64,000 nt of DNA from Sphyrna mokarran (Eukaryota): the NCBI GenBank assembly GCA_024679065.1, contig JAGIQG010000011.1, positions 42,098,001-42,162,000 of the forward strand, given 5' to 3'. Below are positions 36,001 to 60,000 of this stretch, one piece after another (within the stretch, counting starts at the first letter, position 1; each line of letters starts with the position of its first letter). Made by a program: the position numbers.

Positions 36001-39000
36001 CAGTAACTGGAGATGCAACCTTCTCTAAGTGTTGAGCTAAATATAATACAATTTCATTTTTCAAAAAATCTAATTTAATAATCCAACCCTTCTCATCACC
36101 AACACCCGCATTCCCCCCAAAAAAGGATAAATTAATCTTAATCATTAGAAACAGGCATGAGCTTAAACAATTTTTTTTTGGAATATTCAAATTCAATATT
36201 TTCAAAATTGAAATAGAAACAATAGTCTCTATTCATTGCTCCACAATTTAGCTTGTGTTTTGAGAGGGTTTTTTTGTGTGCAGGAGAATCCAAGGTACAT
36301 TACAAAACCTGAGTGTACAGCTTTTTCAGCAGCTTTCAGCCATCTGTTGCTCAATACCTTATACACATATTTTACAATTCAGGCCACTTCCACTCATTGT
36401 ATCCCTTAGAGGACTCAGCTGTATTCTGGGATCAGAACTAAACTTGAGATTTTTCAAAGGGCTGAATTATAAAAAAAGTATGAAATGTAAATGTCAAAGA
36501 TATGTACATTTTTAAATGTAACTGAATTAATAAGATTTTTGTTCCACTATAGTGTTTCACCTGACTGCATCTCTCCCCTGTCTTCGTCTAGCCTCTATTA
36601 AAGAGCAGCATTTTTTCCAGATGAGAAAAGATTTATCTTACAGTAGGGATTAACATCACAGATCTGAATCAAGTTATCTGCAATCTGAACTTCTCAATCC
36701 AGCAATTGACAAGGAATTAAAATATTCAAGTCAGTGTTTCTGCTATTATGTAATAGTGATTTCATTTTCTAATATATACATTAATGCTCTGAGGCTTCAA
36801 TTTTTAAAACATATTTGATTAAAAATGACATTGGTATGCATTTATATTAAAAGGCAAGCATGGGATGCATTGCATTGAACCAATCAATACTTGTCACTTA
36901 TCGGTTTTAGTCCATTTAGGAACAGTAGAGAATTGGAAGGTTTTCTAGTGCAGGTAACAGTAATTGGGAAAAACTATGTGCATTCAAAAGACAGTTTCAA
37001 ACTCCAGCTTTGGCTGTCTTTTGACCTCTGCTACCCTCTATAGGTGAGTTTTACCAAATGTCAGCAGAGCTGTTTTAGTTCACTTTGCAGGATTGGTGAA
37101 TTCCATGACAATATAGGTGGAAAAAAGATAGCCAGAAGACACCTCTGAAAGAAGATCGCCAGAAGATCTCTAGTCTCCACTAACAAAATTACATCTGCAT
37201 CCATTAAAGTATGCAAATTGTTATTCTCTTCTCATTTGTAAAAATGAGAAAATTGGATGGAGGGAAGAGAACACAATATATAGGGCACATATATTCAGGC
37301 CAAGTTTTCTCATTCTGTAGTATAGTATTTAGTCCATAAAAAGTACTTTACAGCCAGCAGTAGTATCATGTGTTTTAAAATTTAACATGTATTTCTGATT
37401 CTTCTTTAAGGCCTCCACAAAATCTCAATAATGGCCAAATTTTAGACATTATTGTGAAAGCTAGAATCTGTGAACCATTCCATAGTATTATAATTTAAAA
37501 AGCTGTAGGTGATAGGGCAATACTTGTTGTTGGTTCATCACTTTTTTTAAAAAGAGGGAACAGAAAGTAGCAGCAGCTGAAGTTGTACATCTTTTTTTGT
37601 ACAGATCATAATTAATTCTGTAAAATAAGTCAGGGGACATCTTCATTTTCTAAACTATGGAAATCGAGAGTTTAAAACCCTCAAAAGTGCGCGGTACTGT
37701 AATACTGTATTATAAAAACAGAACTGGGTCAGTATTGTGTCTTAGGCAGGCATCCAAAAGACTAACCAAATTACAAGGCTTAACTTGCTGACAACAGATT
37801 TTTTTTTTAATGAAACTGTACATTATTTAGCTGTAAACAGGCTAACCTTATGTAGAGGCATATGGTGCACATGCTTCTTTAATTAAACACACGTACTGAT
37901 TTAGATAGCTAAAGATCACATATGTCTTTAGAAATTAAGTATTTTCTAAGCTGTGAACAATGATTACTACATTCAGTTTTACACATCTTTATTAACTATA
38001 TAACTAGTGTAGTCATTCCTTCTCTAATTTATTGACAACAGTCACTAACAATGATACCCTGTGTGAGATTACCAGATTCAAATAAATCTAATTACCAATT
38101 ATTTAATGTCAGAATCTGTCTAACTATGTTCCAAATTTAGACTGTTCATTGAGACTTTTTGAATTTATTTTCTTCAAATTTAGGGAACAGGAGTTTGGAA
38201 TGATTTTGTATCAACTGTCAATGCTACTCATGATATTTTTTGTATACTCTTTCTTCCTTGGAATGTGGGCTTTGTTGGCTAGGCCAGTATTTATTGCCCA
38301 TTTCTACCGATAGGTCACAGGGTTACTCCTACAAGCCTCATACTTCCATGCATCCTTCCTCTCCCCCCACCCCACCTTCCAAATGAACCTTGATAATCCA
38401 ACATAGCTCAACACTCAAATTAGTGGTATAGACAAGCAGGTCAGTTAGGGTACTTCCCTCACATCAAATTAGGCTGCTGATTTACAAATTACAGTGGCAA
38501 ATGCATTTTGCATTAATTTGGATCTGTAAGTATAGCAGCACTGCAGTATACAGCTGATGAGAGTTTTCAAAAAAGTTGAGATACAATAAAAAAATTTGTA
38601 TAGTCAATTTGAAGTTGTGACCTAAAATTGCATAATGTTGAATAATAAAGAAAAAGTGCTTTTAGGAGCACTGAAATCATTTAAAGTACTTTCCCTGGAA
38701 TTCAAAATGATATTTAAAATACTGTTATCTCATTTCTTAGCAGCATTTGATGCCATTATGGGAACACAATCTTCCAACTATAATATTTATTTCATAGAGA
38801 AACAATTCACTTAAGATAAACAATAAGGAATAGTTTCCCCCAAGATCTATAGCAATGAATCTTGAGAAAAATATAATTCTCTTTACTCACTCCTGTTAGA
38901 ACACGGAGTCTGCAATTAGCAGATCAGTCAGGAGAAGGGTACAATGCATCACAACTGCATCTTTCTAAGCATATCAACTGACACTGGTGGATGAAAGGTA

Positions 39001-57000: not shown

Positions 57001-60000
57001 AATTCTATCAACCTCCAATCTGAAAAACAACCATTTACCATGACTCACTATTTTCTGTTCTTAACTCTTTTTTTTTTATCCAAACCAATACTCACCCTAT
57101 TCCACGAGTCTCAATGTTGTTAACCAACATTTAATATGGTACTTTATCAAACACGTGCTTAAAATCCATATAGATATATTGAGCCCATTCCTCCTAATCT
57201 TCTGTTATTGCATTAAGAACGCAATTAATTAATCAAGCTCTCTTTGATTAACTCCTACTTTTTGAAGTGTCTGTTTTTTTTTTCCTGATTATTATTTCTA
57301 GAACCTTACCCATCCTGATGTTCAACCTGAATAAGAATATCCATATACCCTTTCTTGGATAAGGATGCCTGTCACATATGCCACTTTCTAATCCTCTGGC
57401 ACCTCCCCATATCCAGAGAAGATTATAACAAACCACTTCTTATTGCAACCGAAGATGCAAGCAATCCAGATCTGGCAACTTATCTATTCTTAAGCATACT
57501 ATTTGAGTTATCTTTCAGTACACCTTGCCCATTAATTTTCACCCCATCCATTACCTCTGACATCTCCATTTCTACTCATATTTTGTTTGCATCCTTTTCC
57601 CAAATAAATACAAATACAAAGTACTCATCGAGTATTTTAGACCTATCCTGTGCTTCTAAGCATATGTCACTCTTTGTCTGTAAGAGAGCCTAGCCAACCT
57701 TTCACTACCTACATACCAAAGATATTTTGGTACAAAATCTTTCGATTCCCTCTTATGGTTAACTATCATTCTATTTTCATATTCACTCTATGTCAGTCAT
57801 ATTTTCCTCTTCAATATCTCTATCAATATTAAAAAAAGTCACATCCAGTGGTTTTTGCAGGCCCTTTAATTCCCAACTCAGCAGAATCCCAGAAGATGGC
57901 TTATGCCCACAACATAGTCTGAAGACAAATATCTCAATTGATTTACATAATATGCAAGTAAGGACAATTAGAATTATGAAAAATAAGGAAAAAGATGCAG
58001 GTGGATATATCAAATTACACCTTGCACTGCACGTGAAATAACATTCCCTTTCAAATTATATTTTTATCAAGCTGCTTTTCCTTAGAGGCAGAGGAGCTAT
58101 ACTCCCTCACTATTCTATTCAACGGTTAAAAAAAAAGAGAAGATATATCTTTCCCACCACCCCCATTCCATCCTTTCTGCCTAAAAGAAGTCTCACAATA
58201 CCAGGTTAAAGTCCAACAGATTTATTTGGAATTACAAGCTTTTGGACCGCTGCTCCTTTATCAGATGACTCATCTGATGAAGGAGCAGCACTCTGAAAGA
58301 TGTACCCATCCCAATCCAACACTGGCATCTCCACATCATCCTTTCTGCCAAACAGGGTTTTGCATTGCATCTTCTGGCATGCATAAAAAAGTCTCCAGCA
58401 CCAATATCTTTAGCTTTCTTCGAAAGGTCTGATATAATTTCAATGCATAATATTCTTCAGCAGTTTAAATGGACAGTTACAATCCAAGTAAGAAGTCAAA
58501 ATAATAGCTATGAGACTTTTTCACAAAAATAGCAATTCTCTTCAAATCAAATATATCACTAGCAATAGAGAGATAGTGGTCACTTTAACATAGAAGCTAA
58601 GGTAGATAAAGCCTATAGAAATAAAAGTGCAGTGTGTCAGATTTACAAAATAATATACTTCATCTTTTAGGATGGAATCACAGTGCACAAATTTCAAATA
58701 AAATATGCTGAAAACAATAGAACATTATGTAACATAAAGTGACTGAACCAAATGGATCGCAGAAATGCTAAAGTTCAGATAACTCTTACTTGCACATTAT
58801 CAATCAAGTTATTAAATGCAAATATAAAAATTGTTTCCTTCAAGCATATTCACAAGGTATTTAAAATATTTAATAAGCTACCTTTATAAACATCTTGTAA
58901 AGTGTGCTGCTCAGCAAATTCAGAATTTTCTTCAAGGATAAAATGCGTACCTGTTGATATAACTTAATGCGATATATGACGGCTGCTGTTGTTCTTGCCG
59001 TTCCAAAACCTTGGGGTCATTTTCTGTTGAGAGAATGCACCATAAACAATGAGTTTAACAAAAATATTCCTCTCATATAATTTTAAAAGTAGCTATTAAA
59101 TACTGGTTTGAAGCGAGATGTCAGATAAACTTCACCTGGAGTATTGCTTCTACATAATACAGACAACTCAATGGAGGGACTATCTGCCTCCTTTCTACCT
59201 TGTCTTTCCAATATAAAGTAGGATGGTAATGAGATATCTTAAAATAAATCCTTACCCAGTCCTCTCAACTGAGGTCCACATGATACAATTTCTGAGTGAG
59301 CCTCGAAATAGGTGCTGAGTAGTCATGCACTGAAGCAGGCAGAAATCTCTTTACAATATCTGAATTGTGGGTTTTAATGCCAATGTTTAGGACCGTGAAG
59401 CAACTGTGATGTTCCACTGGGATATGCACATGATCTGTCTGGTGGAACTCAGTGCACAACAGGAGTGTTCTTCTCTTCAGAAAAACTCAAACGCTCTATA
59501 CTCAGGGTGATCATGCATCATCGTTTTGGTACCAATTTCATTATCCCCCATCTCCACTTCCTCGTACCGCCTCAATCCCTCCCATTAATGCACTGATTGT
59601 ACGCCGCTGCGTGGGGAGTTGCTCCCACACACCAAAATCATCCGTCAGTATGCACCAGCAGCTCACTAAATCTAACAACACCCAACCAAAAATTAGATCC
59701 GGCCACTCAGCATTGGATCCACATCATTGAAATCCCAATGCGTGATAGTCATTGTGAGATGGCGGTTCTGGTTATATCACCTGCATGCCTCTGTCTTGGG
59801 TTCTTGTAAAGGGATGAGTAGCCATCTCTTCAAGGGATGTCCTTCATCCCAGAAGAATTTTTCATAAATTTCTCAAGTAGAGTGAAGAGATGTGGCAGCC
59901 TGAATTGGCAGAGGATGAAATAGTCATGGCAGTGTGTACTCGGAGGAAGATCTAATTTTAGTCATGGGACAGTTGATCTTTGAGGCAGAGGAAGTCCTTC

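What the first reader, a model, noticed from the sequence alone, without database searches (positions are those of the whole stretch)
38949..59023. Intact JAZF1 paralogue, probably the HoxD-linked 'Jazf2' ohnologue absent from mammals
Seen: four exons with canonical splice sites, conserved lengths and one open frame to TGA, with all zinc-finger Cys/His residues intact. Exon 3 is only about half identical (roughly 35/65 by eye) to human JAZF1 as recalled, although true JAZF1 orthologues are very conserved. Introns 2-4 are only about 13, 3.3 and 3.2 kb. Established: JAZF1 lies tail-to-tail with TAX1BP1 next to HoxA, yet no TAX1BP1 exon is visible in the 38 kb downstream here. Recalled and needing verification: comparative Hox-synteny work described a Jazf2 in the Atp5g3-Lnp interval beside HoxD, kept in cartilaginous fish and eroded elsewhere. 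Inference: this is that little-studied gene, a possible second JAZF subunit for NuA4/TIP60-type complexes.
[Added by the scan's program, not by the reader: the finding's places include an assembly gap (unread letters, written N; its length is only estimated) at 42649 to 42780. Whether the letters on both sides are continuous or in frame is not known: test that first.]
Basis: partly seen in the sequence, partly recalled or inferred. Interest (0 to 1): 0.8.

Follow-up and report, generated by a model that had tools for sequence, protein, structure and literature searches.

The report
Diverged JAZF zinc-finger gene copy
Four cleanly spliced exons encode most of a zinc-finger protein of the JAZF1 family that looks like a diverged sister copy of JAZF1, but this window alone cannot show which copy it is or where in the genome it sits.

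Summary
On the minus strand, four exons (59023-58951, 45968-45772, 42445-42276, 39125-38949) have AG/GT at all seven splice sites. Their phases match, giving one frame of 205 codons that ends at TGA. The N gap (42649-42780) lies wholly inside intron 3, 204 nt upstream of the exon-4 acceptor, so it touches no codon. 'Intact' is overstated: exon 1, with the start codon and first finger, is not in the window.

No tool available here holds a JAZF sequence. Pfam, PDB and the Atlas see only generic C2H2 fingers, so the JAZF assignment and all identity figures rest on recall.

Three indirect points favour a paralogue. Divergence from human JAZF1 is about 74% identity overall and about 55% in exon 3 (recalled). 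The introns are short. No TAX1BP1-type exon appears in the 38.9 kb downstream.

HoxD linkage is untested, because the window holds no flanking gene. The searched literature supports it with one sentence, on a mouse 'jazf2 pseudogene' beside Atp5g3/Atf2/Hoxd.

Best reading: a JAZF1 ohnologue, probably of the Jazf2 type, acting as a NuA4/TIP60-associated zinc-finger adaptor. Interest is moderate to low.

The parts
58951..59023 (-). Exon 2 of the JAZF-type gene. It is 73 nt: 2 nt complete a codon begun in the unseen exon 1, then 23 codons, then 2 nt.
   Evidence: AG at 59025-59024 and GT at 58950-58949. It lies in the open frame 58932..59054. Pfam finds no family.
45772..45968 (-). Exon 3, 197 nt. 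It has a conserved basic start followed by a Ser/Thr/Pro-rich linker, and is the most divergent exon.
   Evidence: AG at 45970-45969 and GT at 45771-45770. GC is 0.55 against 0.36-0.39 in the flanking introns. Pfam gives only chance-level hits, E 0.063 and 0.12.
42276..42445 (-). Exon 4, 170 nt. It holds an acidic Asp/Glu/Ser stretch and then the first half (Cys-x4-Cys) of the second zinc finger.
   Evidence: AG at 42447-42446 and GT at 42275-42274. PDB hits cover only residues 39-55, on C2H2 fingers such as GLI 6.2e-8 and WT1 2.6e-5. Pfam zf-C2H2_aberr gives E 0.029, 15 bits, below the cut-off of 27.
38949..39125 (-). Exon 5 coding part, 58 codons plus TGA. It holds the second half (His-x4-His) of finger 2 and the whole of finger 3 (C-x1-C-x12-H-x4-H).
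   Evidence: AG at 39127-39126 and TGA at 38951-38949. PDB C2H2 matches include Aart 4e-6 and a consensus finger 1.5e-5. Pfam zf-C2H2 gives E 0.015, 16.2 bits, below the cut-off of 25.2.
42649..42780 (.). Assembly gap of 132 N inside intron 3. It is purely intronic.
   Evidence: It is the only N run in the window. It lies 204 nt upstream of the exon-4 acceptor.
38786..38791 (-). First AATAAA after the stop, 158 nt downstream. It is only a candidate poly(A) signal; twelve further AATAAA/ATTAAA follow within 5 kb.
   Evidence: There are no transcript data, so the 3' end is unknown.

Best explanation
The window holds exons 2-5 of a five-exon JAZF-family C2H2 zinc-finger gene on the minus strand. 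The gene appears to be under purifying selection. Its first exon lies beyond the window's right edge.

It is most likely not JAZF1 itself but a diverged ohnologue from the vertebrate genome duplications, of the kind called Jazf2 that survives only as a pseudogene in mouse beside Atp5g3/Atf2/Hoxd. From its repeats, which I recognise from memory, the genome looks like that of a cartilaginous fish.

By homology, the product would be a small nuclear adaptor. The N-terminal part (exons 1-3 in JAZF1, residues 1-124) would dock on the NuA4/TIP60 acetyltransferase complex. The acidic stretch and the two C-terminal fingers (exons 4-5, the best conserved part here) would engage DNA or partner transcription factors. 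This would direct H4/H2A.Z acetylation to a set of promoters and enhancers.

Shown: the exon structure, the open frame, the finger ligands, and the absence of neighbouring genes in the window. Inferred: family membership, paralogue status, HoxD linkage, expression and NuA4 binding.
For: Gene reality:
- All seven splice sites are canonical and the phases match.
- The 205 codons are open, with P about 1e-6 by composition.
- The exons are unique in the window and richer in GC than the introns.
- C2H2 matches fall exactly at the finger parts.

Paralogue:
- By my recall of human JAZF1, identity is about 17/24, 36/66, 48/57 and 50/58 for exons 2-5, about 74% in all and without indels. JAZF1 orthologues of bony vertebrates are recalled as above 90%.
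- Introns 2-4 are 13.0, 3.3 and 3.2 kb, against tens of kb to about 100 kb recalled for human JAZF1.
- No UBZ-type finger, 'FPP.YD'-type motif or coiled-coil exon of TAX1BP1 type occurs on either strand. One search gave 0 hits. One search examined 1,583 ORFs of at least 25 aa across the whole window and gave 5 loose C2H2-like hits, none UBZ-like. One search gave 7 CPxC hits, none followed by the UBZ context, and 0 hits for three further patterns.
- I recognised nothing coding in the 102 and 64 long ORFs listed across 1-38900.
- JAZF1 and TAX1BP1 are direct neighbours in teleost HoxAb and, as recalled, lie tail-to-tail within a few kb in human.

Jazf2 exists as a concept: PMC9976460 names a mouse 'jazf2 pseudogene' with atp5g3 and atf2 near hoxd, and a 'jazf1/2' family (passage).

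Function by homology:
- JAZF1 has three C2H2 fingers and is a stable stoichiometric NuA4/TIP60 subunit, and JAZF1[1-124] suffices for the interaction (passages of PMC9296003).
- Loss of JAZF1 lowers H2A.Z acetylation (passage of PMC13254600; title of PMC7826843).
- The link with NuA4 is old: yeast Sfp1 and fly CG12054 in the DOM-A/TIP60 complex.
Against: No tool result identifies the protein as JAZF. All Pfam hits are below the curated cut-offs. PDB holds no JAZF1 chain among the 31 and 34 matches. The Atlas gave no usable hit for exon 4 and only generic C2H2 clusters for exon 5. Four peptide strings from the exons occur in no held paper.

All identity figures, the human intron sizes and the taxon guess are recalled, not computed.

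The TAX1BP1 test is a crude motif scan, and the neighbour could lie more than 38.9 kb away in a large genome.

The window gives no evidence of HoxD linkage, expression or exon 1.

The part that binds TIP60 in JAZF1 (residues 1-124) is here either unseen (exon 1) or the most diverged (exon 3), so NuA4 binding may not be kept.

The zero-indel match of exon lengths with JAZF1 would fit an orthologue equally well.
Confidence: 0.55

Rival explanations
1. It is the true JAZF1 orthologue of this species, with an unusually diverged linker exon and compact 3' introns. TAX1BP1 would simply lie further than 38.9 kb away, or has moved in this lineage.
For: The exon count, order, phases and lengths equal those I recall for JAZF1, with no indel even in the low-complexity exon 3. 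The finger exons are about 85% identical to human JAZF1 by recall. The window shows no positive marker of any other paralogon. Time since the chondrichthyan-osteichthyan split is not much shorter than time since the genome duplications, so identity alone is weak evidence.
Against: JAZF1 orthologues are recalled as above 90% identical from fish to human, and cartilaginous fishes evolve slowly, so about 74% is an outlier. There is no TAX1BP1-type exon in 38.9 kb, although the two genes abut in teleosts and, as recalled, in human. Introns are 10-30 times shorter than those recalled for JAZF1.
Confidence: 0.27
2. It is a JAZF paralogue, but not the HoxD-flank one. It would be a copy linked to the HoxB or HoxC paralogon, or a lineage-specific duplicate.
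For: Two rounds of duplication could have left up to four JAZF copies. Nothing in the window ties it to HoxD. The only literature anchor for a HoxD-side copy is one sentence.
Against: The only extra JAZF copy named in the searched literature is the one beside Atp5g3/Atf2/Hoxd. A young duplicate of JAZF1 would be expected to be closer to JAZF1 than about 74% (recalled).
Confidence: 0.13
3. It is a silent or 5'-truncated relic: the 3' exons are still open but there is no functional first exon or promoter.
For: Exon 1 is not seen. The window has no CpG island. There are no transcript data. The mouse counterpart is called a pseudogene.
Against: The 205 codons are open (P about 1e-6 by composition), all seven splice sites are canonical and all eight ligands of fingers 2 and 3 are kept. 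An old relic would not look like this. JAZF1's first intron is recalled as very long, so exon 1 is expected to lie outside a window with only 5 kb upstream.
Confidence: 0.05

Closest known systems
Vertebrate JAZF1 (TIP27), a NuA4/TIP60 subunit next to TAX1BP1 and the HoxA cluster
   Same: The layout of exons 2-5, the phases and the exon lengths are the same (recalled). It has an acidic stretch plus two C-terminal C2H2 fingers. The finger exons are about 85% identical (recalled). JAZF1 is described as having three C2H2 fingers and binding TIP60 through residues 1-124.
   Different: Exon 3 is only about 55% identical and the whole about 74% (recalled). Introns are 3-13 kb rather than tens of kb (recalled). 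No TAX1BP1-type exon lies within 38.9 kb downstream. Exon 1 is unseen.
Mouse 'jazf2 pseudogene' in the Atp5g3-Atf2 region beside HoxD (PMC9976460, one passage)
   Same: It would be the orthologous locus if this gene lies between ATP5MC3 and LNPK. Both are a second JAZF copy of a 'jazf1/2' family.
   Different: The frame here is open and the splice sites are intact, whereas the mouse copy is reported as a pseudogene. Linkage is untested here. The paper's source for the name (Montavon 2011, supplements) was not readable.
Teleost jazf1a/jazf1b duplicates beside HoxAa/HoxAb
   Same: They are duplicated JAZF genes flanking Hox clusters.
   Different: They stem from the teleost-specific duplication and keep tax1bp1b and hibadhb as direct neighbours. 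This window has no such neighbour, and its repeats look chondrichthyan (recalled).
Yeast Sfp1 and Drosophila CG12054
   Same: They are distant JAZF homologues that also work with NuA4/TIP60-type complexes. This supports the view that the association is a family trait.
   Different: They are far more distant in sequence.

Membership tests
JAZF family (JAZF1/Sfp1-type zinc-finger proteins) | Three C2H2 zinc fingers: one N-terminal and two C-terminal (PMC9296003) | tested here: inconclusive
   The ligands of the two C-terminal fingers are present, read. C2H2 matches are sub-threshold in Pfam and generic in PDB. The first finger would lie in exon 1, which is outside the window.
JAZF family (JAZF1/Sfp1-type zinc-finger proteins) | Full-length sequence similarity to JAZF1, including the acidic stretch and the conserved exon 2/3 junction motif | not testable with these tools
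   No reachable library holds a JAZF sequence. About 74% identity over 205 residues is my recall-based count only.
JAZF family (JAZF1/Sfp1-type zinc-finger proteins) | Stable association with NuA4/TIP60 through the N-terminal 124 residues | not testable with these tools
   This is known for human JAZF1. Here exon 1 is unseen and no partner sequences could be used.
JAZF1 orthologue (HoxA paralogon) | TAX1BP1 tail-to-tail immediately 3', then HIBADH, with CREB5 5' of the gene | tested here: inconclusive
   No TAX1BP1-type UBZ or coiled-coil exon occurs in 1-38948 on either strand, and I recognised nothing coding in the long ORFs. This leans against orthology. However, the test is a motif scan and the window ends 38.9 kb from the stop. 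The 5' side has only 5 kb.
JAZF1 orthologue (HoxA paralogon) | Groups with gnathostome JAZF1 in a phylogeny | not testable with these tools
   No reference sequences were available, and the joined protein was not built, by instruction.
Jazf2 (HoxD-flank ohnologue) | Lies between ATP5MC3/ATF2 and LNPK/EVX2/HOXD | not testable with these tools
   There is no ATP synthase c-subunit, homeodomain, lunapark-finger or bZIP motif in the window. Only window.fa was available.
Jazf2 (HoxD-flank ohnologue) | A second, more JAZF1-like locus exists in the same genome | not testable with these tools
   The rest of the genome was not available.

The most novel reading that the evidence does not exclude
This is a live, expressed Jazf2: the HoxD-flank ohnologue of JAZF1, intact in cartilaginous fishes although reduced to a pseudogene in mouse. 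It would serve as an alternative, mutually exclusive JAZF subunit of NuA4/TIP60 with its own targets. It would sit inside the 5' HoxD regulatory landscape and so be co-regulated with posterior Hoxd genes in fins, as JAZF1 is with Hoxa13.
Probability: 0.3. Interest if true: 0.5.

Novelty: new member of a known kind. Interest (0 to 1): 0.3.

Why it matters
If this really is a functional second JAZF gene, it adds a paralogue-switch subunit to NuA4/TIP60. The complex already has such pairs, for example EPC1/EPC2. It would also give a natural experiment on which parts of JAZF1 matter: the fingers are conserved, while the linker that belongs to the TIP60-binding half is free to change.

It would also mark the ancestral gene content of the HoxD 5' 'gene desert'. 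That could help date when this region became purely regulatory in tetrapods.

If it is only the species' JAZF1, it is ordinary. Either way, genes kept in cartilaginous fishes and lost in mammals are common, and automatic annotation of the source genome has probably already predicted this one.

Tried and rejected
- Pfam, exon by exon: nothing reached a curated cut-off.
- PDB, exons 4 and 5: only generic C2H2 fingers and no JAZF1 chain.
- ESM Atlas, exons 4 and 5: no usable hit for exon 4 and generic C2H2 clusters for exon 5.
- Rfam on the whole window: 0 matches. ARAGORN: 0 tRNA genes. Neither gave a synteny marker.
- Peptide strings from the exons, searched in paper texts: 0 papers.
- Motif scans for TAX1BP1, ATP5MC3, homeobox, LNPK, bZIP and SKICH: nothing.
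Ten discrete ORFs were tried instead. Eight had no family, one was an RVT_1 fragment, and one was a chance hit.
- CpG-island scan for a promoter: none.
- Literature on Jazf2: of the 3 papers holding 'jazf2', 1 is relevant, 1 is a slip for JAZF1 and 1 is a primer name.
- Seven further literature searches found no paper on a shark or HoxD JAZF paralogue. These were judged from listings plus the passages read.
- Five papers tried by id were not held.
- Processed pseudogene: rejected, because introns are present.
- Human contig: rejected. The recalled protein differs by about a quarter, and I recognise the repeats from memory as the shark type.
- The spliced protein was not joined, searched or folded, by instruction.
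- No structure or complex job was sent. A fold of single exons would not separate the readings.

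
Full report
**What is there.** Stop-to-stop ORFs of 38000-60000 under the standard code (291 ORFs of at least 35 aa) include four minus-strand pieces at 58932-59054, 45755-46003, 42252-42524 and 38949-39125. 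Reading the DNA places the exon borders as follows:

| Exon | Coordinates (minus strand) | Length | Acceptor AG | Donor GT / stop |
|---|---|---|---|---|
| E2 | 59023-58951 | 73 nt | 59025-59024 | GT 58950-58949 |
| E3 | 45968-45772 | 197 nt | 45970-45969 | GT 45771-45770 |
| E4 | 42445-42276 | 170 nt | 42447-42446 | GT 42275-42274 |
| E5 | 39125-38949 | 177 nt | 39127-39126 | TGA 38951-38949 |

A script recomputed lengths and dinucleotides with the same result. The phases fit (2+1, 1+2, 0+0), so one frame of 205 codons runs to the stop. At this base composition such an open stretch has a chance of about 1e-6. Introns 2-4 are 12,982, 3,326 and 3,150 nt. The exons are richer in GC (0.40-0.55) than the introns (0.33-0.39). 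They are single-copy in the window (next best exon-by-exon tblastn hit E = 0.67). They lie outside the 6% of the window (3,797 of 64,000 bases) that has another copy in it.

**The gap.** The only N run is 42649-42780. It sits inside intron 3, 204 nt upstream of the exon-4 acceptor and 2,991 nt downstream of the exon-3 donor. No codon touches it, and the reading frame across it depends on splice phases, which fit. The exons on the two sides are in the right order, strand and phase, which argues that the join is correct. Only the length of intron 3 is uncertain.

**What is missing.** A first exon with a start codon and the N-terminal finger is not in 59024-64000. I saw no first-finger pattern on the minus strand among the 104 ORFs of at least 30 aa overlapping 59000-64000, and a C2H2 regex found none there. 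'Intact' therefore holds for exons 2-5 only, and 'all finger ligands intact' for two of the three fingers. Read, these are C-x4-C-x12-H-x4-H across E4/E5 and C-x1-C-x12-H-x4-H in E5.

- Pfam gave nothing at its curated cut-offs: E5 zf-C2H2 E 0.015, E4 zf-C2H2_aberr E 0.029, E3 two chance-level hits, E2 none.
- PDB gave 31 (E5) and 34 (E4) distinct sequences at E up to 1. Nearly all were ordinary C2H2 fingers (Aart, consensus finger, GLI, WT1, YY1) and none was a JAZF1 chain.
- The ESM Atlas gave no usable hit for E4 and generic C2H2 clusters for E5.
- Four peptide strings from the exons occur in no held paper.

The tools therefore show a C2H2 zinc-finger gene. From memory, identity is about 17/24, 36/66, 48/57 and 50/58 for exons 2-5 (about 74%), with the same exon lengths and no indel. 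I am confident of the family, but this is a lead, not a test.

**Which JAZF.** The closed protein searches and the lack of any other part of the genome rule out the decisive tests. Three indirect points favour a paralogue.
1. JAZF1 orthologues of bony vertebrates are, as I recall, above 90% identical, so about 74% overall and about 55% in exon 3 is an outlier. Time since the shark-bony fish split is only a little shorter than time since the genome duplications, so this reflects weaker constraint rather than greater age.
2. Introns 2-4 are 3-13 kb, against tens of kb to about 100 kb recalled for human JAZF1.
3. JAZF1 abuts TAX1BP1 in teleost HoxAb, in the order creb5b, jazf1b, tax1bp1b, hibadhb (passages of PMC2080641 and PMC3897358), and lies tail-to-tail within a few kb in human (recalled).

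On the third point, the 38.9 kb 3' of the stop shows no TAX1BP1-type exon:
- There were 0 hits for a UBZ pattern and for an 'FPP.YD'-type motif.
- Among the window's 1,583 ORFs of at least 25 aa there were 5 loose C2H2-like hits, none UBZ-like, and 1 coiled-coil-like stretch, which lies in a repeat at 62297-62629 on the other side of the gene.
- There were 7 CPxC hits without the UBZ context and 0 hits for three further patterns.
- I recognised nothing as coding in the 102 ORFs of at least 55 aa overlapping 1-20000 or the 64 of at least 60 aa overlapping 20000-38900.

These scans are crude, and a neighbour could lie further away in a large genome.

**HoxD linkage.** Nothing in the window bears on it. 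There are no motifs of the ATP synthase c-subunit, homeodomain, lunapark finger or bZIP type, no Rfam family, no tRNA and no CpG island (overall GC 0.38, CpG o/e 0.22).

The literature check gave one relevant passage. PMC9976460 speaks of mouse 'atp5g3, atf2, and the jazf2 pseudogene' near the hoxd promoters, and of 'jazf1/2' orthologues in amphioxus and clam, citing Montavon 2011. I could not read that cited paper. The other two papers holding 'jazf2' are a slip for JAZF1 and a primer name.

Seven further searches found nothing on a JAZF paralogue in cartilaginous fish or beside HoxD in main texts (judged from listings and the passages). The elephant-shark Hox paper and three JAZF1 papers were not held. 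Supplements were closed and may hold more.

**Source organism.** The window is CpG-depleted and AT-rich. It carries CR1-like LINE tails (for example the 206-aa open frame 51292-51912, with no Pfam family) and an RVT_1 fragment at 63773-63955 (E 7.9e-6, below the cut-off). It also carries copies of an interspersed element (for example 20186-20353) that I recognise from memory as typical of sharks and rays.

**How it most likely works.** By homology with JAZF1, the product would be a small nuclear protein.
- JAZF1 is described as having three C2H2 fingers and as a stable, stoichiometric NuA4/TIP60 subunit, and residues 1-124 are enough for that interaction (passages of PMC9296003).
- JAZF1 loss lowers H2A.Z acetylation at regulatory sites (passage of PMC13254600; title of PMC7826843).
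- JAZF1 binds NR2C2 (review passage).
- The link with NuA4 is shared by yeast Sfp1 and fly CG12054.

The protein here keeps the two C-terminal fingers and the acidic stretch best. It has changed most in exon 3, which belongs to the TIP60-binding half. NuA4 docking is therefore plausible but not assured, and exon 1 is unseen. All of this is inference; expression is unknown.

**Verdict.** My probabilities for the competing readings are:

| Reading | Probability |
|---|---|
| Paralogue of the Jazf2 (HoxD-flank) type | about 0.55 |
| Another kind of paralogue | 0.13 |
| JAZF1 orthologue | 0.27 |
| Dead relic | 0.05 |

HoxD linkage is untested. The find is a probable new member of a known family. 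Genes kept in cartilaginous fishes and lost in mammals are common, so interest is moderate to low (0.3).

Noticed in passing
window 11032-11477 and 11701-11919: There is a minisatellite of a 33-nt unit: 13.6 copies with 90% matches. A decayed array of related 32-33-nt units follows (72-77% matches). It reads open for 238 aa on the minus strand purely because of the repeat.
   Followed up: partly
window 20186-20353 and 20809-20976: An inverted repeat has 168-nt arms that are 96% complementary, with 455 nt between them. From the translated ORFs, the arms look like two facing copies of an interspersed element that also occurs near 10352-10648 and 24896-25150. It could be a hairpin-forming insertion or a nested pair.
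   Followed up: partly
window 51292-51912 (+); also 61513-61964 (-), 47382-47742 (-), 56284-56532 (-), 4764-5036 (-), 26032-26220 (+): There are several CR1-like LINE 3' tails. One has a 206-aa open frame. None matches a Pfam family (two of them tested). They are diverged from one another: only 6% of the window has another copy at the DNA level.
   Followed up: partly
window 63773-63955 (+): A reverse-transcriptase fragment matches RVT_1 (E 7.9e-6, 26.2 bits, below the cut-off of 29.6) in the 5 kb upstream of exon 2.
   Followed up: no
window 48212-48815, in intron 2: This is the window's GC-richest patch. It has long proline-rich open frames on both strands (165 and 147 aa) and no Pfam family for the one tested, 48212-48706 (+). 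It contains a short internal inverted pair and short matches to 27852-27918 and 6482-6523, so it is probably an old repeat rather than an exon or a promoter. It is not a CpG island.
   Followed up: partly
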